Assembly: GCA_016292035.1 (NCBI GenBank)
Contig: JAEEZR010000010.1
Span: 29,535-93,534 of the forward strand
Direction: 5' to 3'
Length of the DNA stretch: 64,000 bases
Origin: Bacillales bacterium
Lineage (GTDB): Bacteria > Bacillota_I > Bacilli_A > RF39 > UBA660
Shown here: piece after piece, positions 3,274-58,577 of the stretch
Layout: every line of letters starts with the position of its first letter
Position numbering within the stretch: position 1 is the first letter of the stretch
Program-made: the position numbers and the translations under genes
The notes under the pieces: model-generated
Told to the model about the DNA's origin: nothing
Databases searched by the model: none
What the model saw: only the letters and a program-made list of their open reading frames with translations

Positions 3274-3284
3274 TTAAAATCCTC

Positions 3285-10630: not shown

Positions 10631-10663
10631 TTTCACAATAATCAACCTCTCTACTATACCTAA

Positions 10664-10692
10664 ATTATATATCAACTTTTTTACCTTTTCAA
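10664..10692 (-). promoter_or_regulatory. Sigma-A type promoter for P1
   Basis: On the minus strand, TTGAAA, a 17-nt spacer, then TATAAT. It lies between the lepA terminator and the P1 start. Confidence 0.55.
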
Positions 10693-10693
10693 G

Positions 10694-10723
10694 AATAAAA
10701 AATAGCATATTTTGTATGCTATT
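10694..10723 (-). terminator. Intrinsic terminator after lepA
   Basis: Stem aatagcata/tatgctatt with a 5-nt loop, followed by TTTTATT on the minus strand. It overlaps the lepA TAG stop. Confidence 0.7.
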
Positions 10724-29858: not shown

Positions 29859-30797
29859 CTAGTTATATACAGTTTCTATTGGCCCACATGCTGCAATTCC
29901 ATCATTATATAAGTCACAATGGTCACTATTAGAAAACTGAAGTACCCTAGTTTTGGCTGAATAATTATATACCCAGAATCCTCCGTATATGTTTTCAGAA
30001 TCACCTATACGAAGTGATACGTAACTTGTGTCATAACTTGTTAGAGATTCATCTACTGTTATTCCTAAAGATGATTCAACATTTTGTATTAATTTGTTTA
30101 ATGTTGCGCTACCAGTTCTATCGGAAGATACCCATCCATTTGGTTTTTGACAAGCTAATTTTCCATTATAGTATACACACGCTTCATGCTCTACTGTTTC
30201 TTTATTAGTTCTTATAAGTACTAATCCATTTGTTAAAGATAAGTCACTAAGTCTTGTTTTTGCTGTTGATGGGTAAGATCCTTGTGCATATTCTGTGTTG
30301 TTTCCACCTTCAGTTTTTGTCCAGTATACATATGGACTATTTCCGCCATTTGTATTAGACTGTCCTAAGCAAGAGCATTCACCATTATCACATGAAAGTG
30401 TTCCATTTTTTACAAATTCTTCTTCATTTATGTTTGAAGAATATGATTCATTAACATAGCAGTAGTTTGAGTCTTCTACGGCTATAAAATCAACTTTTCC
30501 ATTTGGCCCAAAATCTACTATGTATTTAGCGTCTGTATCTGTTGTATCTAGTTTTGTTTCACTATTACATATATTTTCAATATTGTAGCAGTAATAATTT
30601 CTAGTATTATTTGATAATGAATCAGATTGTTTTTGACTTTCTGCTATTCTAACTATACTTTCAACTTTTACTTTGAATGCATCTTTTCTTCCTTTTTCAA
30701 ACATATTTAAAACGTTTGGCATTATAAGCAACATTAATATTGCTAGTATTGCTATTACTGCTAAAAGCTCTACTAATGTAAATCCTTTTTTATTCAT
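29859..30797 (-). CDS. Type IV pilin-like protein P3 (312 aa)
   Basis: MNKKG/FTLVELLAVIAILAILMLL. The ATG at 30797 avoids overlap with P4. It shares the head and the YVYW/GHEAC C-terminal module. Confidence 0.85.
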   Translation of the reverse strand: MNKKGFTLVELLAVIAILAILMLLIMPNVLNMFEKGRKDAFKVKVESIVRIAESQKQSDSLSNNTRNYYCYNIENICNSETKLDTTDTDAKYIVDFGPNGKVDFIAVEDSNYCYVNESYSSNINEEEFVKNGTLSCDNGECSCLGQSNTNGGNSPYVYWTKTEGGNNTEYAQGSYPSTAKTRLSDLSLTNGLVLIRTNKETVEHEACVYYNGKLACQKPNGWVSSDRTGSATLNKLIQNVESSLGITVDESLTSYDTSYVSLRIGDSENIYGGFWVYNYSAKTRVLQFSNSDHCDLYNDGIAACGPIETVYN

Positions 30798-30810
30798 ATA
30801 ATCATTCCTT

Positions 30811-31830
30811 TTAGTCTTCCAAATTATCATATACGTTTCCTGTGTTTATATAGGTATTACCATTAATAGTTACTATTTCACCTTTATCTATATAGTAATA
30901 CTTGCCTAAATTATATATGTATGTGACACCATTTACAACATTATTAAACACTAAATTGCCGTCCATTCTTTTTAAAAAATCCAAAGTTCCATTTGTCCTG
31001 TCAAAACAAAAAGGTCCACCAACAACAGAATTATCGACTAAAGATTGGGATTGTAAGCACATATATGGGTTAAAACCAGCGCTTATAAGTATTGGTTTTA
31101 ATTCCTCACCCGTTTCAATATTATCAAATGCATTTTTCTTAAAACATGTTGTTTTAGTAGTACTCTTAGCACATATTTCATGTCCTAGAACGTAGCCGTT
31201 ATTTAGTGTTGTTCTAAAGAACAAATTTCCTAGTGTTTCATAACTGGTTAATGCATTTGATGGATATGTTCTATCTGTAAATAATTCACCTTCTACTGTG
31301 TAATTAATGCATTTACCATTTTCATATGTGCATCTTCTTCTACCGTAAGTAATTGTATGATTCCAGTATACATATGTATTATTAGCTGGATCTAGATTTT
31401 CACATACACATACTCCATTTATGCATGTAAGAGGCTTTCCTTCTACTAAATCCTCTTCATTTATATTTGCATTATAATTATCGCTCACATAGCAATAGTT
31501 ACCATCTTCTATAGCTATTGATTTAACGTTATTTTTTCTATTAAATGTTACTTGGTATTTTGCCCCGTTTTCTGATACTGATAGTTGTTTACTATCTTCA
31601 CACTCATCTAATCCTTCACAGTATAAATTAATATTTTTTCCTTCTAATGTATCTGTTTGAATTTGTTTTTGTGCTGATTCTACAATATTGCCTACTTGTA
31701 CTTTGAAGGCATTTTTCTTTCCTTTAGAGAACATGCCAAGTACATTTGGCATTATAAGTAACATTAGTATTGCTAGTATTGCTATTACTGCTAGAAGTTC
31801 TACTAATGTGAATCCTTTTTTATTTTTCAT
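30811..31830 (-). CDS. Type IV pilin-like protein P4 (339 aa)
   Basis: MKNKKG/FTLVELLAVIAILAILMLL. It shares the head and the YVYW...GHEIC module, and has a distinct Asn/Gly/Tyr-rich C-terminal end. Confidence 0.85.
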   Translation of the reverse strand: MKNKKGFTLVELLAVIAILAILMLLIMPNVLGMFSKGKKNAFKVQVGNIVESAQKQIQTDTLEGKNINLYCEGLDECEDSKQLSVSENGAKYQVTFNRKNNVKSIAIEDGNYCYVSDNYNANINEEDLVEGKPLTCINGVCVCENLDPANNTYVYWNHTITYGRRRCTYENGKCINYTVEGELFTDRTYPSNALTSYETLGNLFFRTTLNNGYVLGHEICAKSTTKTTCFKKNAFDNIETGEELKPILISAGFNPYMCLQSQSLVDNSVVGGPFCFDRTNGTLDFLKRMDGNLVFNNVVNGVTYIYNLGKYYYIDKGEIVTINGNTYINTGNVYDNLED

Positions 31831-42114: not shown

Positions 42115-42633
42115 TTACTTTAAAGCTTCAAGTAATTCAGCTTTTTTCATTGTAGTGTATCCTTCGATACCTTTTTCTTTAGCTATTTCTTTTAATTCAG
42201 CTACAGTTTTGCTTGATAAATCAGTTGTTTCTTTTTTAGCTTCTTTTGTTTCAGCTTTAGGAGCTTTTACAGCTTTTCCTTCTAAACCATCTTTAGCTAT
42301 TTTAACTAATTTAGCAAATTCATTCATGTCAACTATTGCTAGTTCAGATAACATCTTTCTGTTGATTTCAACACCAGCTTTTTGTAGTCCATTAATGAAT
42401 TTAGAATAACTAATATCATTTTGTCTACAAGCAGCATTTATTCTTGTTATCCATAATTTTCTGAAGTTACCTTTATTTTTCTTTCTGTCGTTGAAACTAT
42501 ATCTTCCTGAATGCATTAATTGTTCTTGAGCACTCTTATATAGTCTGTGTTTGCTTCCAAAGTAACCTTTAGCAGCTTTTAATACTTTTTTTCTTCTTTG
42601 TCTACTAACAATTCCGCCTTTAACTCTTGTCAT
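42115..42633 (-). CDS. rplT: 50S ribosomal protein L20 with a 55-aa C-terminal extension (Rho_N/HeH-like motif)
   Basis: Canonical L20 covers aa 1-117 (MTRVKGG..RRKKVLK..GYFG..). Then comes a Lys/Ala/Glu linker and [30 protein letters not shown]. Confidence 0.93.
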
Positions 42634-47531: not shown

Positions 47532-50500
47532 TTAGCATGAACAACTAATGGATGAAGGCAATCCTGGCCCTTTAGGACAAGTACTTGCACTACTATTGCA
47601 GTAGTTCTTTAGACAATTTGTATCTGTTCCAACACATTTATAATAGTTAGATACACCTTTTGTTCCTCCGTTACAAGTCCAGCTTCCGCTTGCTGCTCCG
47701 CTTCCTGTATTAGTATATTTGACTGAGCATCCTTTAATTGTACCGGTTGTTCCATTACATTCATAAGAAGCTGTCCAATACCATTTGTTACCAGATCCTG
47801 AGTATGCTGTCCTTGTGACTGTACAGGAACTTTTTACTGCTTTTACTGTACAAGTAACATTATTAGTAACATTTCTAACTGTCAGTGTACTTCCTGATAG
47901 AGAACATCCTGTTCCTGTTACTGTTGATCCAGATAATTTATAATTATTAGATGCAGTAAGTGTAAAAGTAGCATTTGATGAGTGATTGATTAATGCACTA
48001 GATGGATTTGACGAACATCCTGTACATGAAACTGATACTGTGTATTGTTTAATTGGAATATTAACGTTGCAGCTTACATTACTTGTAACATTGCTTGCTG
48101 TTACTGTGCTTCCAGAGATTGTACAACCTCCAGTTACTGTAGCTTTTGATATATCATAGTTTTCGTTTGCTGTTATAGTAAATGATGCATTAGAGCCATA
48201 TTCTACTATTTGTGAATTACTTGAAGTAGTGCCGTTTGTTACTGATAAGTTAACGGTATACTTAAGTTTGTTCATTGAAGCTACACACGATCTATCTTTT
48301 CCGACATTATACGCTGTTATTTTTCCATTTTCGGCTTTGCATCCACTTGATGTTGTTGTTAGAGTGTTAATATCATATCCAGTTGATGCTGTAACTGTTG
48401 ATACAGTTGTTTCTCCTGGAGCCACTTCAACATAGCTAGGAGCTGCACTTCCGTGATCAACTATAAATCTTATTTCATATGCAAGTGGTGATAAAGTTAC
48501 GGTGCATGTTTGATTGTTATAAGCATTCTCTATTGATAAGGCATTTCCTTTTAGTTTACATCCTTCTCCACTTACTGTAGAATGTCTGATCATGTATCCT
48601 TCTTTAGGATTAATTGTTAATACTTTATCAGAATGTTTTTCTACTTCAAATGATACTTCTGATTCTTTACAGTTTTCACATATAACATTTACTTTGACAT
48701 TTTCATATGGAAGTATTCTATATGGATTATCTACTGTTCCGTCAGCATCATTAGTTAGAACATCATTATTTAATGATATTACCGGTCTTATAGCATAGTT
48801 TTTATCAACTGTCATTGCTTGGAATGAACCATATGTTCCGCTTCTTCCATTTACTTCATAAATATATCCTACTGCTTTTGCAGTTGAACTAGTAGTTGAT
48901 GCTATTTTAGCTGGTGACATTGTCCACCATCTTTGGTTACCCATGATTGATGAACCAATACTATTTAAATAATACCATGCTTTTGAGTTCCCTTTTCCAG
49001 AACTTCCTCCTGCAAATACTATCTCATCTATAGTCATTAGGGCTATTGGATATTTAAGTGATTCATTTCCGTTTTTAGTGCTATATCTATCTGATAATTC
49101 TTCACATGCATATGATGGCTCATCTATTTTATAAGCTCTCTTATAAGCATTAGTATATACAGTTGTTTTTATTTTACCATTGTCTTTTATTGTATATGTT
49201 CCATTATATATTGATGAATCACCACAGTAGATAGCATTCCTATTTATATAGTTAGAATATCTTACTAGATTTCTACTATAATAGTTATCTATCATAAGTT
49301 TTACATCTGAATCATATATATTAGTTCTTAACTCATCTAGATCACTATAAGAACTTCCATACATATATCTAATAGCACTTGGATATATTTTATCGTTAAA
49401 GTTACTAGATGCTATTGAAGCATTTGTAGTTGAAGGATTTGGTCCTACATAAAGAAGTCTTACACCATTTCCTTCATTATTAGAGTTGGTTCTAATTATT
49501 CTCCAATATAGTTCTTTTCCTTCATTATTTTTACCGAATATTACCCAGTTATTTGTTACATTTCCTCTATAAAAATATACTCTTGATTTATCTTGTGTAT
49601 CAGTTGTGTAGTATATTTCTCCTGTGTTATTATTTTTGTCTACTTTATTATAGTCTATGCTTGCTGCTGATATGCTTTTATTATCATCTAATATCTTTTC
49701 AGATAATACATGACTTTTTGTTTTTGCAATTACTGTGCATGTAGTATCTTCCACTACATTTTTTACTGTAAGTTCATTATTTTCATTTAAAATGCAGTTT
49801 GTTTCATTAGATGAAGTAACGTCTGCATTTCTTAAAGTAAATCCACTAGTTGCTGTTATTGCAAATGTAGCATTGCTTCCTTCATATACACTTTTTTGTC
49901 CGAAGTTACTAGTGCAGTTTGAACATAAAACTGTTACTGTATGTTTTGGCTTTGGTTCTGGTGGTATTTTAGGTAGTGATATATTGTAAGATACATTTTT
50001 AGTTACGTGTACTTTCAGTATATCTTCTTCAAGTAAACATCCTCCACCATTATAGTAAGCTCCTTGTGTTGTGTAACCTTCTTCTGGAATTAAAGTATAA
50101 GTTAAATCTTGACCATATGCTTGATCGCTTTCTGTTATTGTGCTTGGATTTGCTCCTGTTATATTTACATTTACTGAAAAGAATTCTTGATTTAAAGTGA
50201 CTTTGCATCTACCATTTTTAGTTATATATGCACTTACAAGATTACCACTTACTGTGCATCCTTCATATCCTTCAGTAGTGGCACCTTCTAGTATATATCC
50301 TTCTTTTGGTTCTATTATTCTATTAACTTCTTGACCATATTCTACTTCAAATAGTGATTCAAATCCCGCCTGTGCTTCATCAGAAGTGAAATAAAAATAA
50401 TATTTCTCTTTATCCAGTTTTATATTACATACTGTATTTTTTTCTATATTAGTTGCTAATACTTTTAAGTTGTTTTCTTCATCTATATATAATTTACAGT

Positions 50501-51335
50501 GATTGTTTTCTTCTTCTAGTGGTTCATCTTCTTCTAACTCTTCTTCTTCGTCATCTACAAGTAGTTTAAGAGCGTTGATAGTATACTTTCTTGTATTAAG
50601 AGCTAGAGGCTTGCTCTTATTTCTTGATTCTAATTCTTCTTCACTTATAACTTCAGCAGAATCTATATCATATCCGTCTTCTGGAGTTAATGTAAATGTT
50701 TCTGAACCACCTACATGTACATATTTAGCTTCAGCATCAGGTGTTGCGCCTTCAACATTTAGTGTTACTATTCTTTTATTTTCTTCATATTCTGTTTTAT
50801 CTAGGAAACATGTTACATGAGTTTTAATTATTTTTCCTTGATCTATGTTTTGTTCAGTTCCTGTTTCTTTGAATATTATATTATATTTTACTTCATGGAT
50901 TTGTCCTTTAGAGATTATATTTTTTTCAGGCTCTAGTGTTCCTTTTGAAAGGATTATTTCTTCGCCTGGGGTACTAGGAACTGGTGTTTCTGATAAAAGA
51001 TTTCCATCTGTTCCATCAATTGTTTGAACATATACATTATTAGTGTAACTGTTTTCTTCCATTGTTAGAGTGCATGTATAGTCTACTGCTACATCAGAGT
51101 CACTTATAAAATAAACTCTAGTTGATCCTTCGCCTTTCCATCCAGGGAAAACATTTTCAGATGCTTCAGGAGAAGATACTACATATTCTACTTTTCCTAG
51201 TCTAGCTGTCTGTACAGTGCTGCTTGATGATTCTCCTCCATAGTTAAAAACAAAGTAAGCTAACGCTGTACTTGTTACTAACATAATTAGCGATAAAAAG
51301 ATAATTACTGATAAAACCATTGATTTCTTCTTCAT
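47532..51335 (-). CDS. Giant secreted or anchored repeat protein (1267 aa). Layout: N-terminal hydrophobic signal (not a prepilin), unique domain, 4 InlB-B-repeat-like modules, a 335-aa globular insert, 4 more modules, and a Cys-rich cap ending SCSC.
   Basis: The ORF is intact. The N-terminus is MKKKSMVLSVIIFLSLIMLVTSTALAYFVF. The modules are homologous to those of pilins P1 and P5. There is no LPXTG motif. Confidence 0.85.
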   Translation of the reverse strand: MKKKSMVLSVIIFLSLIMLVTSTALAYFVFNYGGESSSSTVQTARLGKVEYVVSSPEASENVFPGWKGEGSTRVYFISDSDVAVDYTCTLTMEENSYTNNVYVQTIDGTDGNLLSETPVPSTPGEEIILSKGTLEPEKNIISKGQIHEVKYNIIFKETGTEQNIDQGKIIKTHVTCFLDKTEYEENKRIVTLNVEGATPDAEAKYVHVGGSETFTLTPEDGYDIDSAEVISEEELESRNKSKPLALNTRKYTINALKLLVDDEEEELEEDEPLEEENNHCKLYIDEENNLKVLATNIEKNTVCNIKLDKEKYYFYFTSDEAQAGFESLFEVEYGQEVNRIIEPKEGYILEGATTEGYEGCTVSGNLVSAYITKNGRCKVTLNQEFFSVNVNITGANPSTITESDQAYGQDLTYTLIPEEGYTTQGAYYNGGGCLLEEDILKVHVTKNVSYNISLPKIPPEPKPKHTVTVLCSNCTSNFGQKSVYEGSNATFAITATSGFTLRNADVTSSNETNCILNENNELTVKNVVEDTTCTVIAKTKSHVLSEKILDDNKSISAASIDYNKVDKNNNTGEIYYTTDTQDKSRVYFYRGNVTNNWVIFGKNNEGKELYWRIIRTNSNNEGNGVRLLYVGPNPSTTNASIASSNFNDKIYPSAIRYMYGSSYSDLDELRTNIYDSDVKLMIDNYYSRNLVRYSNYINRNAIYCGDSSIYNGTYTIKDNGKIKTTVYTNAYKRAYKIDEPSYACEELSDRYSTKNGNESLKYPIALMTIDEIVFAGGSSGKGNSKAWYYLNSIGSSIMGNQRWWTMSPAKIASTTSSTAKAVGYIYEVNGRSGTYGSFQAMTVDKNYAIRPVISLNNDVLTNDADGTVDNPYRILPYENVKVNVICENCKESEVSFEVEKHSDKVLTINPKEGYMIRHSTVSGEGCKLKGNALSIENAYNNQTCTVTLSPLAYEIRFIVDHGSAAPSYVEVAPGETTVSTVTASTGYDINTLTTTSSGCKAENGKITAYNVGKDRSCVASMNKLKYTVNLSVTNGTTSSNSQIVEYGSNASFTITANENYDISKATVTGGCTISGSTVTASNVTSNVSCNVNIPIKQYTVSVSCTGCSSNPSSALINHSSNATFTLTASNNYKLSGSTVTGTGCSLSGSTLTVRNVTNNVTCTVKAVKSSCTVTRTAYSGSGNKWYWTASYECNGTTGTIKGCSVKYTNTGSGAASGSWTCNGGTKGVSNYYKCVGTDTNCLKNYCNSSASTCPKGPGLPSSISCSC
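47832..48704 (-). repeat. C-terminal block of four tandem modules of about 72 aa in the 1267-aa protein
   Basis: aa 878-1168, for example YTVSVSCTGCSSNPSSALINHSSNATFTLTASNNYKLSGSTVTGTGCSLSGSTLTVRNVTNNVTCTV. Confidence 0.85.
49722..50774 (-). repeat. N-terminal block of four more divergent modules in the 1267-aa protein (the first is interrupted by an acidic insertion)
   Basis: aa 188-538. Acidic insert DDEEEELEEDEPLEEE at aa ~260-276. The fourth module has the full CxNC...C...C pattern. Confidence 0.7.
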
Positions 51336-51362: not shown

Positions 51363-51391
51363 ATTATATACCGTTTAAAGATTTTTATCAA
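51363..51391 (-). promoter_or_regulatory. Promoter of the 1267-aa gene
   Basis: On the minus strand, TTGATA, a 17-nt spacer, then TATAAT. Confidence 0.55.
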
Positions 51392-51404: not shown

Positions 51405-51430
51405 ATAAAAAGTACCTTTTAAGGTACTTT
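51405..51430 (-). terminator. Intrinsic terminator after pilin gene P5
   Basis: Stem aaagtacc/ggtacttt with a 6-nt loop. It overlaps the TAA stop and is followed by TTTTTATT on the minus strand. Confidence 0.65.
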
Positions 51431-53030
51431 AATTACAACTACAATTATATCCTGAAGAACTTACATTTATACCAGCAACACTTGTGCTTGATAAACTTGT
51501 ATTACAATATGAACGTATATTTCTTCTAGTTGTGCTTGTACACATTCTGTTAGGATTTGAGCTTCCGTAACTTCCACCATTACACTGAGTACTTCCATAG
51601 AAGCAGTTTACAATGCTACCAGTTTTTCCGCCGGTGCATGTGAATGACCCATAAAATCCTGATGTTGGTTTAGTTGTTGTACAATTAGAACTTGAAGAAC
51701 AATAAACTGTGCAGCTAGATGATTTAGCAGTTACAGCACATGTTTTATTAGATGTTACATTAGACGCTGTTAAAGTGCTTCCTGAAAGAGTACATCCTCC
51801 TGTTACTGTTGCTCCTTCTAAAGAATAACCACTTGATGCTGTCAGTGTAAATGTAGCATTTGTATTATAATCAACTGTTTGACTAGAAGTATTTAAAGTA
51901 CATCCTGTACATGTAGCTGAAACTGTAAATTGTTGTTTAGGCGCTGTTACGGCGCATGTAGTAGCAGCTGTTACATTGTTTAAACTTACTGTACTTCCTG
52001 AAAGTGTGCATCCTCCTGTTACTGTTGCACCTGTTAGGGTATATCCTGTATTTGCAGCGATAGTAAATGATGTATTAGTAAATGCCTCAACATTTTTTTC
52101 TTCACTTGCTGGTGTACAGTTAGTACATGTTAGCTTAATTTTATATGATTGTACTCCTAGAGATACTCTACATGTAGTATCTGCTAATACATTTGTTACT
52201 GATACTTTACCATTTTCTAGTGTGCATCCATCTGACACTGTGGCATTGTTTAGATTATATCCAGTATTAGCTGATATATTAAAGTATACATTTGATCCAG
52301 CCATAACGGTTCTTGTACTTGTAGCTGGTGTACAATTAGTACATACTAAATCTACTTTATAGCTTGCTACTGGAAGTGTTATAGTGCATGCTTTATTTGA
52401 AGTAACATTTGATGCTTTTAGAATATTATCTTCTAGTGTGCATTCTCCTTCAACAGTTGCATCTTCTAGTGTATATCCAACATTAGGAGTGATTACAAAT
52501 AGTGCATCCGTTCCTTTATCTACTAGTGCATAAGGCATATCACTTTTACCATTGTTAACTGTAACTGATACTTTCTTTTTACCTTCTATTACAACACAGC
52601 TGCAGCTCTCTCCTGTACATTCTACTGCACCATTTTTAATGTCACTCGTATTTATATCGAATTCTTTAGTTGTGTCTACATCTTTTATATAGCATAAGCT
52701 TCCATCAGATACTGTTAGATGTGATACTTTACCACGTTCATTTAATTCTATTTTATATTTCTTATCGGTTTTTAAAAGATCTAATGATGTACATCCTAGG
52801 CTTGATAGAGATTCATCACAGTATACTCTTCCCGTCGCTCCAGTTAGTCCATCAGCCATGTATTTCTTTTCAGCTTCTTTTTTTATTGATTCAATTTCAA
52901 TTTTAAATGCATCTTTTTTTGCTGCTCCAAACATGTTTACTACCTTAGGATAAATAAGTAGCATAAGTACTGCTACTACTCCTAGTACGGCTAAAATTTC
53001 GACCAAAGTAAAACCTTTTTTATTTTTCAT
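51429..53030 (-). CDS. Modular type IV pilin-like protein P5 (533 aa): prepilin leader, head, 4 InlB-B-repeat-like modules, and a 96-aa Cys-rich cap ending NCSCN.
   Basis: MKNKKG/FTLVEILAVLGVVAVLMLL. The head aligns with P1 (ESIKKEAEKKY..YCDES..LGC). The repeats are at aa 154-437. Confidence 0.88.
   Translation of the reverse strand: MKNKKGFTLVEILAVLGVVAVLMLLIYPKVVNMFGAAKKDAFKIEIESIKKEAEKKYMADGLTGATGRVYCDESLSSLGCTSLDLLKTDKKYKIELNERGKVSHLTVSDGSLCYIKDVDTTKEFDINTSDIKNGAVECTGESCSCVVIEGKKKVSVTVNNGKSDMPYALVDKGTDALFVITPNVGYTLEDATVEGECTLEDNILKASNVTSNKACTITLPVASYKVDLVCTNCTPATSTRTVMAGSNVYFNISANTGYNLNNATVSDGCTLENGKVSVTNVLADTTCRVSLGVQSYKIKLTCTNCTPASEEKNVEAFTNTSFTIAANTGYTLTGATVTGGCTLSGSTVSLNNVTAATTCAVTAPKQQFTVSATCTGCTLNTSSQTVDYNTNATFTLTASSGYSLEGATVTGGCTLSGSTLTASNVTSNKTCAVTAKSSSCTVYCSSSSNCTTTKPTSGFYGSFTCTGGKTGSIVNCFYGSTQCNGGSYGSSNPNRMCTSTTRRNIRSYCNTSLSSTSVAGINVSSSGYNCSCN
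51720..52571 (-). repeat. Four tandem coding repeats of about 71 aa inside P5
   Basis: Same consensus as the P1 repeats. A 41-nt stretch (52009-52049) matches P1 (9603-9643) at 39 of 41 positions. Confidence 0.85.
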
Positions 53031-53088: not shown

Positions 53089-53114
53089 TTAAAAAGAAGC
53101 ACAATGCGCTTCTT
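53089..53114 (-). terminator. Intrinsic terminator after the prepilin peptidase gene
   Basis: Stem aagaagc(g)c/g(a)gcttctt with a short loop, followed by TTTTT on the minus strand. Confidence 0.55.
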
Positions 53115-53860
53115 TAAAATACATAACCCATACTGGATAATATATATATTATTATGCATGATAATAATAGGAACGGTCCGAATGGAATTAGATTTTCATT
53201 ATATTTTTCATCGAGTAAGAAGTAAGCTATTAAAGCTAGAACGCTAGCTACAAATAATGAAAGAAGTCCATTAAATGTTCCAAGAGCAAGTCCTATAGGA
53301 AGCATTAATTTTACATCTCCTCCTCCAAGGCTTTCTCTTTTAAATACTTTATCTCCTACTATTTTTACTAATAACATAATTACAAATAATACTACCATTC
53401 CAACTATTTTTAATTTGTAGTCATTAAATGAACTAAATGATATATATGTTATTAGTATTAATAGAGTTGATCCAAATACTACTCTATCTGATACGTAATA
53501 ATATTTAAAGTCACTTACTGCAGTTACTGAACATGCACTTATTAATATTAGTGGCACTATTATATCCGCAGTTAATCCATAATACAAATAACTACACATA
53601 AATGTTATACCAGTAAATAATTCTACTATTAAGCTACTTATATCTATATGCGCTTTACAATATGAGCATTTACCTTTTAGGCATATATAAGATATTACTG
53701 GAATGTTCATATACCATTTAAGTGGTTTTAAGCAGTTATCGCATCTACTTCCTGGTTTTATTATACTTATATTATTTGGTATTCTATATCCTATGCAAGC
53801 ATAGAAACTTCCAAGAAGTAAACCAAGCACTAAAAATGCTCCCCCATAAAATACTGTCAT
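53114..53860 (-). CDS. Prepilin peptidase (A24 family, PilD/ComC type)
   Basis: N-terminal Cys pairs CDNC...CSYC, polytopic membrane protein, catalytic Asp contexts AVSDFKYY and GGGDVKLM. Confidence 0.88.
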   Translation of the reverse strand: MTVFYGGAFLVLGLLLGSFYACIGYRIPNNISIIKPGSRCDNCLKPLKWYMNIPVISYICLKGKCSYCKAHIDISSLIVELFTGITFMCSYLYYGLTADIIVPLILISACSVTAVSDFKYYYVSDRVVFGSTLLILITYISFSSFNDYKLKIVGMVVLFVIMLLVKIVGDKVFKRESLGGGDVKLMLPIGLALGTFNGLLSLFVASVLALIAYFLLDEKYNENLIPFGPFLLLSCIIIYILSSMGYVF

Positions 53861-53870
53861 TATATTCCTC

Positions 53871-55748
53871 CTATTTAAGTATTTCTGAACTTACGTTGTA
53901 CATTGGAACTAATACTGATATCATTATACCACCTACTACTACTGCTAGGAATACTAGTAGTATAGGTTCTACCATTGTTTTTAGAGTATTTGCTAAAGAA
54001 CGTTGTTCTCTTTGATAGTACTCACTTATTTTTTCAAGCATGCTAGCAAGTTGTCCAGTTTGTTCACCTGTTGATATCATATAATATGCAAGTTCTGGTA
54101 TAGCCCAGCTTTCCTTAAATGATAATGACATTTTTTCACCTCTTAATAGGTTTGAAATTGTATCATACATTATCATTTTATAGAATTCATTATTAGTTAT
54201 TTTACTTAAGATATCAATTGTATCTGTAAGTAATACATTGTTTTTATTAAGTACTGCGAATGTTTTCGCAAATAAGTTCATTTCATTATAGATAACTATG
54301 TTACCTACTACTGGTATATGCATGTATGCATATTGAACTACTGTTCTAAATGCTTTTACTTTCTTATATAGTATTGAGAATACCAATATAATAGCTAATA
54401 TAGCTACAAATAATATACCAACATTATTTCTTAAGAAGTCTGATAGTTTTAATAAGAATAATGTTATACCTGTCATTTCTGCATTCATTGAATCATATAC
54501 TTTTTTGAATTGAGGTACTATGTATACAACCATGAATGTTATAACAGTTACTGCAAATATAAGTACTATAGATGGATAAGTTAATGCACTTATCATTTGT
54601 TTTCTTGTAACTTCTTTTTCTTGATAATAATTTGACATATCATCTAGAGTTCCTTCTAGATCACCTATTAATTCAGCTGCTTTTATCATGTTAATTAAAA
54701 GAGCTGGGAACACTTTGTTTTGTTTTTCTAATGCAGATGAGAAGTTTTCACCTACAGATAATTCATATATTAATGAAGAATATACCTTTTTATATTTTCT
54801 TCTATTATCTTGTTTAGCTAATATTTTAATAGCGTCTATTAATGGAATACCAGCTTTCAAATATGTGGATAATTGTGTTAACCAGAATACTAAGTCTTTA
54901 TTCTTCATTTGTTCATTCATGTGTGATTTCTCACCATGTATGAAATTTATCCACCAGTTAGTAGTTATTTCATATACTTCATATCCTTCATCAATTAAGA
55001 ATGAGTGTACATCTAGTCTAGATAAAGATGGGAAGTATCCTGTTATTAATTTGCCTTCTTTATTTCTTGCTAAATATCTATATACTTGTTTCTTTTCAGT
55101 TCTTTCAGCATCTTTACCAAATTTATCAATAAATAATACTTCAAGTTCTCTTTCTTTTTTATTTTTATAGTATTTAACTAATGATATATTATTCCATTTG
55201 TTTACAAAGTAATTAGATATAGACTTAGGTGCATTTTTAGTTGCATATGTTGTCTTTTCTCTAATCATTTTAATTCTTTTAGCAGATTTATCTACAAATC
55301 CACTAAGTGAACTATATATAAATATAGGGAAAGAATAGAATATTACTTTTAATACTTTAAATGAACCTCTTCCGATTGCCTTTAGTAGTAAATATAGCTC
55401 AGTTACTATTGGTTTAAGAGAATATTTGTATACAGCTTTGCCTACTATTCCTACATATTTAGCAATAAACTTAGATGCATACATTATTGCTACAAAAATA
55501 TAACTAAATACAGTAAAAATATTAGTGACTAAAAAGTCAAATGCTTTAAATAAACCTACTGATGTGTATGATAGTGTTTTTATTATTTCGCCAAATAATC
55601 CTACTACTATTTTTTTTATTAATAAAAATATACTTTTAAAAAAGTCTACAAAGAATTTAACTATAGGATTCATATTCCTATTAGTAGAGACGGAACTATT
55701 CTTTTTTTTCTTGGTTTGCTTTGGTTTTGCTTTTTTATATGTTTTCAC
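53871..55748 (-). CDS. Type IV filament platform protein (GspF/PilC/ComGB family) with a 220-aa N-terminal extension
   Basis: GTG start with GGAGG 8 nt upstream. The canonical N-domain begins at YRYLARNKEGKLITG (aa ~223). There are two T2SSF repeats (LSTYLKAGIPLIDAIKILAKQ and FAVLNKNNVLLTDTIDILSKI) and 3 core TM helices. Confidence 0.88.
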   Translation of the reverse strand: MKTYKKAKPKQTKKKKNSSVSTNRNMNPIVKFFVDFFKSIFLLIKKIVVGLFGEIIKTLSYTSVGLFKAFDFLVTNIFTVFSYIFVAIMYASKFIAKYVGIVGKAVYKYSLKPIVTELYLLLKAIGRGSFKVLKVIFYSFPIFIYSSLSGFVDKSAKRIKMIREKTTYATKNAPKSISNYFVNKWNNISLVKYYKNKKERELEVLFIDKFGKDAERTEKKQVYRYLARNKEGKLITGYFPSLSRLDVHSFLIDEGYEVYEITTNWWINFIHGEKSHMNEQMKNKDLVFWLTQLSTYLKAGIPLIDAIKILAKQDNRRKYKKVYSSLIYELSVGENFSSALEKQNKVFPALLINMIKAAELIGDLEGTLDDMSNYYQEKEVTRKQMISALTYPSIVLIFAVTVITFMVVYIVPQFKKVYDSMNAEMTGITLFLLKLSDFLRNNVGILFVAILAIILVFSILYKKVKAFRTVVQYAYMHIPVVGNIVIYNEMNLFAKTFAVLNKNNVLLTDTIDILSKITNNEFYKMIMYDTISNLLRGEKMSLSFKESWAIPELAYYMISTGEQTGQLASMLEKISEYYQREQRSLANTLKTMVEPILLVFLAVVVGGIMISVLVPMYNVSSEILK

Positions 55749-55864: not shown

Positions 55865-57670
55865 TTATTCTTCACTTTTGATAAAGTCTACGCTTGTTGT
55901 GTCAATTACGTTTCCTTGTTCATCTTTTAAGATTAAATCTACTTCGTAATATCCATCTTTGTCTGCATCAACTACTACTTCATCTAATTGTGAGAAACTA
56001 TTAGCATCTTTAAGTTCAACTGGAGCACCATTAACATCATCAATTACTTCACCGTTGTATTTAATAGTTACTGTTGAGCCTTCTGCTTTTTCTTTAACTA
56101 CTGCAGTTATTGTTCCATTAAATGTAACATTTTCTCCTGCACCATAAGTATTTTCATATGTTTCAACAAATCTATCTGTTGATTCTTGTTCTTCAAGATT
56201 AATGTACTCATAATATGATGATATGTCTTCAATTGTTGGTGAATCTACTGAACAGTAATCATATCCGCATCTTTCGTAGTATACAGTGTATTCATCTAAT
56301 TCAGTATCATCTGTTAATACGTAGTTGTTAGAATATTGATCAATAACTATTTCTGTTGGATATGTAGGTGTTTCTTCATATACTTCCATAGCATAATCTG
56401 TTGTTTTAACTGTTTTTCCTTCTTCATCTTTTAGAGTAAATGTAAGTAAGTAATTTCCTTCTTTACTTGCAGTCATGTCATTAGAATATTCTATATTACT
56501 TGAAGAAACATTTACTGTATATAGTAAACCTTGTGCAGTTTCTGAGAAAGTGTCTACTCCATTTTCATTATTCCATGAAAGTGTTCCAGCTCCTTCATAA
56601 GTTACATACATTTTATAATCTTTGCTTTCATCCAATTCACTACTTGAAACTGATACTGAGAATGGTGCTTCTACAGCTTTTATACGTTCAGATGTTCCAT
56701 CACTTAATTCAATGAATGTATACTTACTGTTATCTTTGTCTAGATATATAAGTTGTGTTCCTGAAGCGTATGGATTATCAACTTTTGCAGTATCTTCTCC
56801 TAAATCAATGTTATTGTTAGATGGATCAACAATTATTGAAGGGCTTCCTTCTATTTCGTTATTATTTATAACACTTGCATTGTTTGTAGTTGATACTTCA
56901 CTTGAGCTTCCACTGATTCTTGCTCTTGAATCACTATATTCATTTTGATTTGTAATGTTTATGTTATCATTAACAACAACTTTAGAATCGTTGATAGTTA
57001 ATGCATAATAAGAAGCATCTACATCCATTTTTCCAATAGTAACATCAGTTGAATCTACTATTTGTATTGCCACTCTATCTTCATAGCTTCTTCTTTCAGT
57101 TATATTAACATTTAAATTTGTTAGTGATACTTTTTGATTAGTATTAATTTTAATACCATATGATTTAATTAGTTGTTTTGAGAAGTTTATTGTTTTTCCT
57201 TTTCCATCAATTGTTACTTCTCTATCAATTAAAATTGGTTTTGATAAACCTGTTAAGTCATTTTGTAATTCTAGTGTAGTAGCGGCATTTTCAGTTTGTG
57301 CTAGAGTCAATACTAATTCTTCATAAGAAGATATTTCGTCTTTTGTTATTACATTACCATTATCATCTCTAGTTACACCAAATAATGTCTCACTTACTAC
57401 AGTTCCATCTGCTTTTACCCATTTACCAGTTTCAGTATTATATTTAACTATTGATGCTGGGTTAATTGATGGTGGTAATAATTCAGCAGTAATCCTATTT
57501 ACATATATTCTATCTGCAGCTATATAAATGTTGTCGATTTCTGCTCTATTATTTACTGTTGTAGTAGCCATTGTTTTAGCTTCACTTTGTGTTATAATAG
57601 TTGCTTTTGCATTAGTAAGTGGCACTAATAATAGAATTGTAAATAGTATCCCATATATTATTTTTTTCAT
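55865..57670 (-). CDS. Secreted protein (601 aa), possibly a beta-helix region plus acidic Ig-like C-terminal domains
   Basis: Sec signal MKKIIYGILFTILLLVPLTNAKA. VTIDGKGKTINF and short repeated V/I-x-V-x-N rungs suggest a parallel beta-helix. No anchor motif. The fold call is tentative. Confidence 0.7.
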   Translation of the reverse strand: MKKIIYGILFTILLLVPLTNAKATIITQSEAKTMATTTVNNRAEIDNIYIAADRIYVNRITAELLPPSINPASIVKYNTETGKWVKADGTVVSETLFGVTRDDNGNVITKDEISSYEELVLTLAQTENAATTLELQNDLTGLSKPILIDREVTIDGKGKTINFSKQLIKSYGIKINTNQKVSLTNLNVNITERRSYEDRVAIQIVDSTDVTIGKMDVDASYYALTINDSKVVVNDNINITNQNEYSDSRARISGSSSEVSTTNNASVINNNEIEGSPSIIVDPSNNNIDLGEDTAKVDNPYASGTQLIYLDKDNSKYTFIELSDGTSERIKAVEAPFSVSVSSSELDESKDYKMYVTYEGAGTLSWNNENGVDTFSETAQGLLYTVNVSSSNIEYSNDMTASKEGNYLLTFTLKDEEGKTVKTTDYAMEVYEETPTYPTEIVIDQYSNNYVLTDDTELDEYTVYYERCGYDYCSVDSPTIEDISSYYEYINLEEQESTDRFVETYENTYGAGENVTFNGTITAVVKEKAEGSTVTIKYNGEVIDDVNGAPVELKDANSFSQLDEVVVDADKDGYYEVDLILKDEQGNVIDTTSVDFIKSEE

Positions 57671-57689: not shown

Positions 57690-58577
57690 TTATCCTATAA
57701 TTGCTTTTTTAACATTATAAGTTGTATTGTTTAGTTTTATTTTTGCTACTGAGTTAATTTGATCTTTATCAACTATTATAGCTTTTATACTTTCATCATA
57801 TCTTCCAAGATATTTGTCAGCGGCATTATATACTGCATATACTTCTTTAGCTTGTGCTTCAGTTAATTCTGTGTCATTCTTTATAAGTATTATCTTGTAA
57901 GAAATATCAAGTCCATCTACAGCCTCATATCTGTATTTATAATCATCTAGTACAGTTATTGTTACTGTAGCCATTTTACCAGAGTCGCTACTTTTAACAG
58001 TTATAACAGCTTTACCTGGCTTAACAGCAGTTACTGTACCTTTAGCATCAACTTTTGCAACTGCTTCATTATCTGATGAGTAAGTTAATCCAGTGTTTAG
58101 TACGCCACTAGGATATACGCTTGCACCTATTTCATAAGTACTGCCTATTTCTAGATTAACACTTGTTGCTTTAACATTTACTTTAGTTACAGTTAGTTTA
58201 TAGCAAGAGCAACTTTCTGTATTTAAAGCATATCCTTTATCACAAGTTAGTGTGCAAACACTTGCTACCGGTTCAGTGGGTTTTTCTTCTTTACTAGGTT
58301 CTTTTTTATTCCATTTTGCAACTAAAACCATATCTTCAGTAACTTCTAGATCAAAGTCATATTTTTCTCCATCTAGTTCCCATCTTGCAAAAGAATATCC
58401 TTCTTTAGTTGGATCTTCAGGCTTAGTAACTTTTCCTCCTTTTTCTACATTTTGGCTTTGTACTTTAGTACCACCATTACTATCAAATTCTACTAAGTAT
58501 TCTTTCTTAGAACAACTACATGCAGTTAAGACAGTAAGTGCAAATACTAAAAGCACTGCTATTTTTAGTTTTTTCAT
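57690..58577 (-). CDS. Lipoprotein with a Listeria-Bacteroides (Flg_new) repeat, a CxC Cys-cluster and a Big_2-like Ig domain
   Basis: Lipobox LTAC. YLVEFDSNGGTKV...PTKEGYSFARWELDGEKYDF...MVLVAKW is the classic Flg_new repeat. CTLTCDKGYALNTESCSC cluster. ...AVAKVDAKGTVTAVKPGKAVITVKS is Big_2-like. Confidence 0.8.
   Translation of the reverse strand: MKKLKIAVLLVFALTVLTACSCSKKEYLVEFDSNGGTKVQSQNVEKGGKVTKPEDPTKEGYSFARWELDGEKYDFDLEVTEDMVLVAKWNKKEPSKEEKPTEPVASVCTLTCDKGYALNTESCSCYKLTVTKVNVKATSVNLEIGSTYEIGASVYPSGVLNTGLTYSSDNEAVAKVDAKGTVTAVKPGKAVITVKSSDSGKMATVTITVLDDYKYRYEAVDGLDISYKIILIKNDTELTEAQAKEVYAVYNAADKYLGRYDESIKAIIVDKDQINSVAKIKLNNTTYNVKKAIIG

What the first reader, a model, noticed from the sequence alone, without database searches (positions are those of the whole stretch)
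47532..51335. 1267-aa non-pilin protein built from the same modules, with a TasA/SipW-like N-terminus and a large globular insert
Seen in the sequence: the protein downstream of pilin P5 has eight modules homologous to the pilin stalk modules, in blocks at aa 188-538 and 878-1168. It carries the same type of Cys-rich cap ending SCSC, while P5 ends NCSCN. It lacks the G/FTLxE prepilin motif. Its N-terminus (hydrophobic core, then TSTALAYFVFNYGG) resembles the AYF-type signal region of SipW-dependent TasA/camelysin-like proteins. That resemblance is inference from memory of the family and is weak. A 335-aa insert (aa 541-876, nt 48708-49715) with motifs YFYRGNVTNNWVIF, LYWRIIRTN, WWTMSP and YAIRPVISL splits the two module blocks. 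The first module carries an acidic insertion (DDEEEELEEDEPLEEE). There is no LPXTG or other recognisable anchor. Inference: the same stalk-plus-cap design appears to be delivered by two different routes, one pilin-type and one Sec/SipW-type. Alternatively this protein is a non-polymerising partner that docks on the filament.
Basis: partly seen in the sequence, partly recalled or inferred. Interest (0 to 1): 0.7.

Follow-up and report, generated by a model that had tools for sequence, protein, structure and literature searches.

The report
TasA-headed mosaic adhesin beside pilin genes
This gene encodes a very large exported surface protein of an uncultured low-GC gut-type bacterium, with a TasA-like (biofilm-fibre) head in place of a pilin head, carrying the stalk repeats and cysteine-rich tip of the neighbouring type IV pilin plus a lectin-like binding domain, which suggests that adhesive "payloads" are swapped between two different fibre-building systems.

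Summary
The ORF at 47532-51335 (minus strand) encodes 1267 aa with eight stalk modules in two blocks. Its Cys-rich cap is homologous to that of the adjacent pilin P5. It has no prepilin motif and no LPXTG, and it carries a 335-aa globular insert.

The N-terminus is more than a signal. It is a signal peptide (ALA|YF) followed by a ~160-aa beta-sandwich domain. This domain belongs to a large family: 5045 clusters at 50% identity, found at the protein N-terminus in all 150 best hits. The family links to Pfam Peptidase_M73 (TasA/camelysin), and the best PDB fold match is the TasA fibre.

The insert is a distant DUF6273-type, C-lectin-like binding domain. In related MAGs, paralogues of it are diversified by diversity-generating retroelements (DGRs). 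The modules are weak relatives of the InlB B-repeat.

In relatives the same globular domain sits behind TasA-like heads (most), prepilin heads (few) or plain signals.

A 1368-aa orthologue (60% identity) keeps the architecture but has a different cap. The gene order pilD-P5-target recurs in another contig.

Most likely this is a TasA-type counterpart of a modular pilin. SipW dependence and polymerisation remain untested, and no sipW lies in the window. I rate it a new variant of a known kind, of moderate to high interest.

The parts
51258..51335 (-). Signal peptide, aa 1-26 (MKKKS, then a hydrophobic core, then TSTALA). The predicted cleavage is ALA|YF.
   Evidence: Sequence. The residues at -3 and -1 are small in all 19 aligned family N-termini. 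This parallels the TasA signal-peptide cleavage site; TasA's signal peptide is removed by SipW and its donor strand is residues 28-38 (PMC9674648), while the exact -1/+1 residues are from my memory. Cleavage itself is inferred, not shown.
50775..51257 (-). TasA/camelysin-like N-terminal beta-sandwich domain, aa 27-187. It includes the putative donor strand YFVFNY.
   Evidence: hhalign against the family: 92% probability, E 6.5e-7. AF2 model: seven strands, pLDDT 69.7. Top Foldseek PDB hit: TasA fibre 8aur_A, E 2.5e-4. Family members hit Pfam PF12389.
49713..50774 (-). Stalk block 1, aa 188-541: four modules of ~70 aa, weakly related to the InlB B-repeat.
   Evidence: Module HMM hits. Seven of 16 modules hit Pfam Flg_new_2, best E 7.5e-5.
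50469..50630 (-). Acidic insertion inside module 1, aa 236-289, including DDEEEELEEDEPLEEE.
   Evidence: Sequence. The module HMM splits this module into 190-235 and 290-309.
48708..49712 (-). Globular DUF6273-type (C-lectin-like) domain, aa 542-876.
   Evidence: 505 homologues. AF2 pLDDT 90.6, pTM 0.92. Foldseek against BFVD hits phage DUF6273 proteins, E 1e-5 to 1e-3. Seven of 58 family members hit PF19789.
48792..48911 (-). Hypervariable loop region of the globular domain, aa 809-848, between WWTMSP and IRPVISL. It is the equivalent of the DGR variable region in paralogues.
   Evidence: Highest column entropy of the family alignment. The same stretch is the VR of DGR cassettes in L024 and L045. 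In this window it has 34% GC and there is no TR or RT.
47826..48707 (-). Stalk block 2, aa 877-1170: four modules. The last is 62% identical to the last module of P5.
47535..47825 (-). Cys-rich cap, aa 1171-1267 (10 Cys, ends SCSC), homologous to the cap of pilin P5.
   Evidence: blastp E 1e-11. Shuffle z = 6.0, 0 of 2000 shuffles reached the score. No PDB relative.
51363..51391 (-). Promoter-like site (TTGATA-17-TATAAT) in the P5-target spacer.
   Evidence: Consensus scan only, 11 of 12 matches.
51409..51430 (-). Terminator-like hairpin overlapping the end of the P5 gene, so the target looks like its own transcription unit.
   Evidence: Consensus scan only.
51429..53030 (-). Modular type IV pilin P5 (533 aa): prepilin N-terminus, four modules, Cys cap.
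   Evidence: Pfam N_methyl E 5.6e-7; modules. A P5-like pilin sits immediately upstream of a target orthologue in L089.
53114..53860 (-). Prepilin peptidase (PilD).
   Evidence: Pfam A24_N_bact E 1.5e-28 and Peptidase_A24 E 9e-15.
53871..55748 (-). PilC/GspF-type platform protein with an N-terminal extension of ~220 aa.
   Evidence: Pfam T2SSF E 5.6e-49; NCBIfam GspF and PilC models match aa 217-623.

Best explanation
The gene encodes an exported mosaic surface adhesin of about 137 kDa. It is the TasA-type counterpart of a modular type IV pilin.

Domain order (shown): signal peptide; TasA/camelysin-fold N-terminal domain; four modules weakly related to the InlB B-repeat; a DUF6273-type, C-lectin-like ligand-binding domain; four more modules; and a Cys-rich cap shared with the neighbouring pilin.

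Proposed mechanism (inferred):
1. The protein is exported by Sec.
2. The signal peptide is removed at ALA|YF by a signal peptidase. The TasA precedent points to a SipW-type enzyme encoded elsewhere in the genome.
3. The freed N-terminal strand and its beta-sandwich then attach the protein by beta-strand complementation, as in TasA or BsaA fibres. The partner could be further copies of itself or another subunit at the cell surface.
4. The repeat stalk projects the lectin-like domain and the cap away from the cell to bind a ligand.

The C-terminal modules and cap were exchanged by recombination with pilin genes. The same payload is therefore displayed on two unrelated N-terminal carriers.
For: Domain identities
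- N-domain versus the family: hhalign 92% probability, E 6.5e-7.
- A profile search finds 5045 clusters at E<=1e-3. In all 150 best hits listed the domain starts within the first ~24 residues, in proteins of 97-1254 aa.
- 28 of 61 distant members hit PF12389 Peptidase_M73, best E 1.5e-10.
- The best PDB fold match is the TasA fibre 8aur_A (E 2.5e-4, probability 1.0). The archaeal bundling pilus 7ueg also appears in the list.
- In the monomer model the stretch just after the signal is disordered (aa 34-46, pLDDT below 50), as expected of an unpaired donor strand.
- The cleavage-site pattern (small residue, x, A or G, then Y/F-F) is conserved in all aligned members. F at +2 and alternating hydrophobic residues parallel the TasA donor strand, residues 28-38 with F29 and I32 (PMC9674648).

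SipW in relatives
- SipW-type peptidases (TIGR02228, 98-102 bits against a cutoff of 51.85) are encoded in related MAGs.
- In L052, sipW is followed, after a 151-aa ORF of unknown family, by a SYAIF-type member of the family.

Globular domain
- 505 homologues and a confident model.
- Structural matches to phage DUF6273 proteins.
- The hypervariable loop coincides with the VR of DGR cassettes in L024 and L045. In L024, 23 of 28 mismatches lie at TR adenines, and an RT and a bAvd-like gene are present.
- DUF6273 is described as a C-lectin-like receptor-binding domain (PMC10743442).

Carrier swapping
- Architecture census.
- Cap homology with P5.
- Last-module identity of 62% to P5 and 58% to the 703-aa pilin.
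- Orthologue with a different cap.

Other
- No other anchor is present.
- A precedent for TasA-family oligomers held at the membrane, and for a link to type IV pilus genes, is C. perfringens BsaA/BsaC (PMC11580942).
Against: - The target itself hits neither PF12389 nor TIGR04088.
- The N-domain model has only moderate confidence (pLDDT 69.7) and the TM-score to TasA is 0.42.
- No signal peptidase gene lies in the 64-kb window.
- In most related loci the family genes are not next to sipW.
- No stand-alone TasA-like major subunit was seen in the window or the first set of loci. The apparent N-domain-only ORFs were almost all cut by locus ends or frameshifts, and the one interior exception (L060 813-1478) directly abuts a globular-domain match. 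Complete ~170-185-aa members do exist elsewhere.
- A 1240-aa C-terminal load on every subunit may be sterically hard to fit into a TasA-like fibre.
Confidence: 0.5

Rival explanations
1. Pilus-linked protein. The protein is a substrate of, or a docking partner on, the adjacent type IV pilus system. Either it is pushed through the wall by the pilus machinery, as BsaC and BsaA are in Clostridium perfringens, or it binds P5-containing pili through the shared cap and modules.
For: - The gene order pilD, P5, target is conserved in a second contig, L089.
- In L081 the orthologue follows another module-bearing pilin.
- A complete single-domain family member, P0210, lies 21 nt upstream of a prepilin gene in three assemblies.
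- Cap and modules are shared with P5.
- T4P-dependent secretion of proteins from a sipW-tasA-like operon has been published (PMC11580942).
Against: - The target has its own promoter-like site and follows a terminator-like hairpin.
- The full orthologue in L088 has no classical pilin neighbour.
- Across 53 N-domain genes in related MAG loci, only 2 have a prepilin ORF within 3 kb, which is about the chance expectation.
- The window has five pilin genes in 64 kb, so adjacency to one is not rare.
Confidence: 0.25
2. Uncleaved signal-anchor. The N-terminal helix stays in the membrane. The protein is then a monomeric type II membrane-anchored adhesin, and the TasA-like sandwich serves only as the membrane-proximal spacer.
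For: - It is the only hydrophobic segment and no other anchor exists.
- AF2 draws one continuous helix across residues 3-33, running through the AYF motif.
- BsaA oligomers are reported to be membrane-anchored (PMC11580942).
Against: - The motif (small residue, x, A, then Y/F-F) is conserved at the end of the hydrophobic core across a family of thousands. This is what a cleavage site needs and what a plain anchor does not.
- TasA-family proteins that have been characterised are processed by SipW (PMC9674648).
Confidence: 0.2
3. Ordinary Sec/SPase I secreted adhesin. The TasA-like sandwich is just one more beta-sandwich spacer with no assembly role, and the similarity to the pilin reflects only local domain shuffling.
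For: - A-L-A|Y-F is a textbook SPase I site.
- The related MAG CAKOIS encodes a bacterial-type SPase I as well as a SipW-type one.
- Family genes mostly stand alone among housekeeping genes.
Against: - The N-domain is at the extreme N-terminus in all 150 best hits and carries many unrelated payloads: Gp10_C, BspA LRR, ALK_LTK glycine-rich, DUF285, fn3. That behaviour is typical of a carrier or assembly module rather than a spacer.
- The mature N-terminal strand is among the best conserved parts of the domain.
Confidence: 0.2
4. Artefact. The long ORF is an assembly chimera, or a fused pseudogene made from an N-domain-globular gene joined to the 3' half of a pilin gene.
For: In relatives the globular domain is nearly always C-terminal, and this is the only case in the census with modules after it.
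Against: - An independent contig (L088) carries a 1368-aa orthologue that is 60% identical over 1235 aa with the same domain order.
- Fragments of two more orthologues exist.
- DNA identity of the target's modules to P5 is only ~69%, so there has been no recent fusion.
Confidence: 0.02

Closest known systems
TasA (Bacillus subtilis), BsaA (Clostridium perfringens) and camelysin; Pfam PF12389 Peptidase_M73
   Same: A signal peptide ending in small-x-A followed by an aromatic-F start of the mature chain. A beta-sandwich domain with the PG(W/D)..TK.F.v.N motif (the TasA sequence used for this motif comparison is from my memory). Family-level HMM links. The best PDB fold match is the TasA fibre.
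   Different: TasA and BsaA are single-domain proteins of ~26 kDa encoded next to sipW. Here the domain is only the first 15% of a 1267-aa protein, no sipW is nearby, the target itself is below the Pfam and TIGR04088 thresholds, and fibre formation is untested.
Modular type IV pilins (Streptococcus sanguinis PilB and PilC; PMC8179133, PMC9934059)
   Same: The same design logic: an N-terminal polymerisation module carrying C-terminal adhesive modules. The neighbouring P5 and the 703-aa pilin are such modular pilins and share the target's modules, and P5 its cap.
   Different: The target has no class III signal (prepilin motif) and no pilin alpha-1 helix and head. Its carrier is a TasA-like sandwich.
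DUF6273 (PF19789) domains: phage tentaclins and DGR target proteins (PMC10743442), and the N-terminal domain of the Thomasclavelia ramosa IgA protease ThomasA (PMC12402451)
   Same: Structural matches to phage DUF6273 proteins. HMM hits for 7 of 58 family members. The WW..SP ... VRP motif is shared. In paralogues the C-terminal loop is a DGR variable region.
   Different: The target's own domain is below the Pfam threshold. It is internal rather than terminal. It has no TR or RT and no GC-rich VR in the window. No solved structure matches it.
InlB B-repeat / Listeria-Bacteroides repeat (PF18998 Flg_new_2)
   Same: Units of ~70 aa with the G-Y-x-(L/F) core and a T-V-T-style beta pattern. Seven of 16 modules give hits, best E 7.5e-5.
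   Different: The matches are weak. Most modules carry conserved Cys residues (up to four per module), which may form disulfides.
T4P-dependent secretion of the sipW-bsaA-bsaB-bsaC products in C. perfringens (PMC11580942)
   Same: A TasA-family protein genetically associated with type IV pilus components in a Gram-positive bacterium.
   Different: In C. perfringens the link was shown by mutant secretomes and the genes sit in a sipW operon. Here the only evidence is conserved gene order with pilD and a pilin.

Membership tests
TasA/camelysin (Pfam PF12389 Peptidase_M73) | The protein itself matches the family HMM at or above the gathering score. | tested here: not met
   No PF12389 hit for the full protein or for aa 1-188, even at E<=10.
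TasA/camelysin (Pfam PF12389 Peptidase_M73) | Homology reachable through intermediate sequences. | tested here: met
   Target to N-domain family: hhalign 92% probability, E 6.5e-7. Family to PF12389: 4 of 17 members (best E 6.2e-5) and 28 of 61 members (best E 1.5e-10).
TasA/camelysin (Pfam PF12389 Peptidase_M73) | A beta-sandwich (jellyroll) fold like TasA. | tested here: met
   AF2 model with seven strands. The top Foldseek PDB hit is 8aur_A, the TasA fibre: E 2.5e-4, probability 1.0, but TM only 0.42, and the model pLDDT is 69.7.
TasA/camelysin (Pfam PF12389 Peptidase_M73) | Fibre assembly by N-terminal donor-strand exchange. | not testable with these tools
This needs AlphaFold-Multimer or biochemistry.
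TasA/camelysin (Pfam PF12389 Peptidase_M73) | The gene is encoded next to a sipW signal peptidase. | tested here: not met
   No SPase I of either type is found in the window by motif search or phmmer. SipW-type genes do exist in related MAG loci L014, L052 and L063.
SipW-cognate signal peptide (NCBIfam TIGR04088) | A match to the model at or above 19 bits. | tested here: not met
   The target has no hit at E<=10. The relative P0006 scores 12 bits, E 0.18, covering the hydrophobic core up to AYF.
Type IV pilin | A class III signal with G|F-T-L-x-E and the hydrophobic alpha-1 helix (Pfam N_methyl). | tested here: not met
   The motif is absent from the target and present in five other ORFs in the window. 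There is no N_methyl hit.
DUF6273 (Pfam PF19789) | The domain itself matches the family HMM. | tested here: not met
   No PF19789 hit for the insert at E<=10. Seven of 58 homologues hit it, best E 3.8e-5.
DUF6273 (Pfam PF19789) | A fold shared with DUF6273 proteins. | tested here: met
   Foldseek against BFVD gives 7 hits at E<=1e-3, 3 of them named DUF6273 domain-containing proteins; 5 more DUF6273-named proteins appear at weaker E, with target-normalised TM up to 0.57. In the PDB only marginal C-type lectin matches are found.
DGR target protein | A VR with a cognate TR showing adenine-specific mismatches, plus a nearby RT. | tested here: not met
   No repeat of the VR-equivalent stretch and no YxDD ORF are found in the window, and the stretch has 34% GC against 58% in true VRs. 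The feature is met for paralogues in L024 and L045.
InlB B-repeat (Pfam PF18998 Flg_new_2) | The modules match the family HMM. | tested here: inconclusive
   Seven of 16 modules hit it at E<=1, best 7.5e-5. The target module shown scores 14.9 bits against a cutoff of 23.6.
Sortase-anchored (LPXTG) surface protein | A C-terminal LPXTG motif followed by a hydrophobic tail. | tested here: not met
   No LPXTG-like motif and no C-terminal hydrophobic segment; the protein ends in SCSC.

The most novel reading that the evidence does not exclude
TasA-like N-domains may be a second, general, self-assembling carrier for adhesive payloads in uncultured gut Bacilli, interchangeable by recombination with type IV pilin N-termini. 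Cells would then build donor-strand-exchanged fibres, possibly heteropolymers drawn from dozens of paralogues. Those fibres would display lectin-like heads diversified by paralogy and by DGRs. This 1267-aa protein would be the extreme case: it carries a complete pilin-type stalk and cap.
Probability: 0.25. Interest if true: 0.8.

Novelty: new variant of a known kind. Interest (0 to 1): 0.6.

Why it matters
Two ways of building Gram-positive surface fibres are known in some detail: type IV pili, whose modular pilins carry adhesive modules, and TasA-type donor-strand fibres, known as plain single-domain subunits.

This locus shows one stalk-and-cap payload on both kinds of N-terminal head in neighbouring genes. 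The wider family of thousands of clusters shows TasA-like heads carrying many different adhesin-type domains, some hypermutated by DGRs.

If the head really polymerises, TasA-type fibres would be display scaffolds for variable binding domains in poorly known, small-genome members of the gut microbiota. That would give a direct handle on how these organisms attach to hosts or other cells. It would also give a testable case of module exchange between two unrelated filament systems.

Tried and rejected
- Direct Pfam and NCBIfam scans of the whole protein and of each part gave nothing significant.
- Exact-sequence look-ups of the target and of MraZ found no record, so the source organism stays unidentified. 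The best genome-collection relatives of the globular domain are only 41% identical.
- A single-sequence search with the N-domain found one fragment. A search with the last two modules plus the cap found one weak hit. The cap and module lineage is therefore barely sampled.
- The first metagenome scan, using the full protein, found nothing.
- Foldseek of the insert against the PDB gave no significant match. The cap against PDB sequences gave nothing. The module profile against the PDB gave only E>=0.34.
- Signal-peptidase motif searches (regular expressions) on the window and on 1.15 Mb of loci found nothing. This was because the local SipW-type enzymes read SPSMTP. phmmer with B. subtilis SipW and SipS sequences recalled from memory found them, and NCBIfam then confirmed them.
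- I tested whether the family is generally adjacent to prepilin genes. It is not: 2 of 53, the chance level.
- I tested whether the target's own lectin-like domain is a DGR target. It is not: no TR, no RT and no GC-rich VR.
- I looked for N-domain-only "major subunit" genes next to the family genes in the first loci. Nearly all were truncations or frameshift pieces, and the one interior case (L060) directly abuts a globular-domain match.
- I considered an assembly chimera and rejected it on the basis of the L088 orthologue.

Full report
**1. Observation**

The ORF at 47532..51335 lies on the minus strand and encodes 1267 aa. It sits immediately downstream of a cluster made of a PilC-like platform gene (53871-55748), a prepilin peptidase gene (53114-53860) and the modular pilin P5 (51429-53030). 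It lies upstream of mraZ-rsmH-ftsL-pbp2B.

The window has ~28% GC and carries five prepilin genes scattered among housekeeping genes.

- The N-terminus MKKKS..TSTALAYFVFNYGG, with no prepilin motif.
- Eight stalk modules. An HMM built from the four P5 modules alone recovers them at aa 190-309 (split by an acidic insertion), 330-382, 387-456 and 466-541, and at 881-948, 953-1022, 1026-1096 and 1098-1170.
- A 335-aa insert at aa 541-876.
- A C-terminal cap with 10 Cys. It aligns with the P5 cap well beyond what composition explains: z = 6.0, and 0 of 2000 shuffles reached the score.
- No LPXTG motif and no second hydrophobic segment.

**2. The N-terminus is a domain, not only a signal**

Homologues of the insert turned out mostly to be ~500-aa proteins that begin in the same way: a K-rich start, a hydrophobic core, then S/T-x-A-Y/F-F, followed by a ~150-aa region with PGW..TKTFTV.N.

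- The target's first 188 aa align to a profile of these N-domains with 92% probability, E 6.5e-7.
- Four of 17 members hit Pfam Peptidase_M73 (camelysin/TasA).
- A profile search of 1.84 billion representatives found 5045 clusters at E<=1e-3. In all 150 best hits listed the domain lies at the extreme N-terminus, in proteins of 97-1254 aa.
- Of 61 of the more distant hits, 28 match Peptidase_M73, best E 1.5e-10. Their C-terminal parts carry unrelated domains: Gp10_C, BspA-type LRR, the ALK/LTK glycine-rich domain, DUF285 and fn3.
- An AlphaFold2 model of aa 1-190 (pLDDT 69.7) shows a helix at 3-33, a disordered stretch at 34-46 and a seven-stranded sandwich.
- Its best PDB match is the cryo-EM TasA fibre 8aur_A (E 2.5e-4). 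The archaeal bundling pilus 7ueg also appears in the list.

The target itself does not reach PF12389 or the TIGR04088 "SipW-cognate signal" model. Membership therefore rests on transitive homology and fold.

The residues at -3 and -1 before Y/F-F are small in every aligned sequence. This is what a signal-peptidase site requires. In TasA the signal peptide is removed by SipW, and residues 28-38 form the donor strand, with F29 and I32 as contacts (PMC9674648). The target's mature start would be YFVFNY.

**3. Signal peptidase**

The window has no SPase I gene of either type.

In the related MAG loci, phmmer found three SipW-type genes, in L014, L052 and L063. The query sequences were B. subtilis SipW and SipS recalled from memory. 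NCBIfam confirmed the hits independently: TIGR02228 at 98-102 bits against a cutoff of 51.85.

In L052, sipW is followed by a 151-aa ORF and then by a 643-aa family member that starts ...SYAIFKVD. The same MAG also has a bacterial-type SPase I.

SipW-type processing is therefore plausible in this lineage, but it is not shown for this protein.

**4. The insert**

The domain has 505 homologues in the large protein database. In species-representative genomes it has 321 copies, many per genome. All are in uncultured gut Bacilli or "Tenericutes"-labelled MAGs and in Clostridium sp. CAG:628.

- The AF2 model is confident: pLDDT 90.6, pTM 0.92.
- No solved structure matches it. There are only marginal, partial matches to C-type lectin domains.
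- Against predicted viral structures it matches gut-phage proteins, several of them named DUF6273 domain-containing proteins, at E 1e-5 to 1e-3.
- Seven of 58 family members hit PF19789.
- DUF6273 has been described as a C-lectin-like domain of phage receptor-binding proteins that are DGR targets (PMC10743442). It is also the N-terminal domain of the T. ramosa IgA protease (PMC12402451).

The family's most variable stretch is target aa 809-848, between WWTMSP and IRPVISL. In two related loci that same stretch is a genuine DGR variable region:
- In L024 a 138-nt template repeat lies downstream. Of 28 mismatches, 23 are at template adenines. A bAvd-like gene and a reverse transcriptase follow (RVT_1, E 2.7e-15).
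- These VR/TR pairs are 58% GC islands in DNA of ~25% GC.

The window's copy has 34% GC over this stretch, no template repeat and no RT. The insert is therefore a fixed member of a ligand-binding domain family that is under diversifying pressure.

**5. Modules and cap**

Seven of 16 modules give weak hits to the divergent InlB B-repeat, Flg_new_2, best E 7.5e-5.

The last module of the target is 62% identical to the last module of P5 and 58% to the last module of the 703-aa pilin. At the DNA level, target and P5 modules are ~69% identical. The exchange is therefore old and in register at the C-terminal end.

The cap has no relative in the PDB and almost none in the protein database.

**6. Architecture census and orthologues**

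Across loci and hits the globular domain follows three kinds of N-terminus:

| N-terminal part | ORFs |
|---|---|
| TasA-like head | 112 |
| TasA-like head plus one module | 6 |
| Plain signal plus module(s) | 23 |
| Prepilin N-terminus | 4 |

The target's order (head, four modules, globular domain, four modules, cap) was unique in that set.

A second metagenome scan then found further orthologues:
- L088 holds a 1368-aa orthologue, 60% identical over 1235 aa, with the same order. It has five distal modules and a different C-terminal Cys domain, which weakly resembles the C-terminal domain of another pilin in the window.
- L089 holds a partial pilD, a 688-aa P5-like pilin with seven modules and the same ...NCSCN cap, and then the start of a target orthologue.
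- In L081 a third orthologue fragment follows a pilin whose C-terminus matches the window's 703-aa pilin.

The gene is therefore real and conserved, its caps are exchanged with pilins, and it tends to sit beside module-bearing pilin genes.

That tendency is not general for the family: only 2 of 53 N-domain genes have a prepilin gene within 3 kb, which is the chance level. In the window the target follows a terminator-like hairpin and a promoter-like site, by consensus scans only.

**7. Interpretation**

What is shown is a mosaic exported protein whose parts are identified with varying strength. The TasA-fold head is supported by transitive homology and fold. The globular domain is identified well. 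The repeats are identified weakly. The cap is known only as a pilin-shared element.

What is inferred is signal-peptide cleavage at ALA|YF, probably by a SipW-type enzyme, followed by strand-complementation attachment or polymerisation through the head. The stalk would then present the lectin-like domain and the cap.

I put about 0.5 on that full mechanism. I put much more, about 0.85, on the domain assignments and on the statement that one payload design occurs on two unrelated N-terminal carriers.

The rivals are:
- A functional tie to the adjacent pilus system. C. perfringens gives a published precedent for T4P-dependent export of products of a sipW-tasA-like operon (PMC11580942).
- An uncleaved membrane anchor.
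- An ordinary secreted adhesin with no assembly role.
- An artefact, which is excluded by the orthologue.

**8. Novelty**

Each part belongs to a known kind. The combination was not found described in the paper searches made here: a TasA-like head used as a carrier for a pilin-type stalk and cap plus an internal DUF6273-type domain. The same holds for the family-wide pattern of TasA-like heads carrying diverse, sometimes DGR-diversified, payloads.

I class it as a new variant of a known kind, with interest 0.6.

Noticed in passing
L024 1-3937 (CAKOIJ010000029.1) and L045 5069-5614: Complete DGR cassettes sit next to paralogues of the globular domain. In L024 the VR is at 1151-1287 and the TR at 1527-1664, with 23 of 28 mismatches at TR adenines, followed by a bAvd-like gene (2500-2841) and a reverse transcriptase (2828-3937, RVT_1 E 2.7e-15). 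The VR and TR are 58% GC islands in DNA of ~25% GC.
   Followed up: yes
L052 7700-10939 (CAKOIS010000004.1): A SipW-type signal peptidase (TIGR02228, 98 bits) is followed directly by a 151-aa ORF of unknown family and then by a 643-aa SYAIF-type protein carrying the globular domain. The layout resembles tapA-sipW-tasA. In L014 and L052 sipW follows typA and a queH-like gene.
   Followed up: partly
window 8597-10708, 12581-13519, 29859-30830, 30811-31830 (all minus strand): Four more prepilin genes are scattered among housekeeping genes (sigA, dnaG, lepA, asnS). One (703 aa) has four of the same modules and a 230-aa Cys-rich C-terminal domain. Three (312-339 aa) share another Cys-containing C-terminal domain, which reappears weakly as the cap of the L088 orthologue.
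   Followed up: partly
L089 726-2792: The P5-like pilin of a related genome has seven modules instead of four and the same cap. Module number therefore varies between relatives.
   Followed up: no
window 53871-55748 (minus strand): The PilC/GspF-type protein has an extra ~220-aa N-terminal region before the part that matches GspF and PilC models (aa 217-623). No ATPase (PilB) gene was identified among the ORFs I scanned.
   Followed up: no
window 55865-57670 and 57690-58577 (minus strand): Two further secreted or surface proteins lie upstream of pilC. One is a 601-aa protein with a pectate-lyase-like adhesive domain (PF20585, E 1.8e-6). The other is a 295-aa lipoprotein-like protein with a Listeria-Bacteroides repeat and a Big_2 domain.
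   Followed up: no
window 42115-42633 (minus strand): The ribosomal protein L20 homologue is 172 aa long. It has a lysine- and glutamate-rich C-terminal extension ending in a motif that looks like SAP or the Rho N-terminal domain ([30 protein letters not shown]). This was judged by eye only.
   Followed up: no
L082 8001-9214 (GCA_036642495.1; the same in L083 and L084): A complete 171-aa single-domain member of the TasA-like N-domain family (P0210) lies 21 nt upstream of a 225-aa prepilin gene, after ylbD-ylbE. At the equivalent position in L001 there is a prepilin gene instead.
   Followed up: partly
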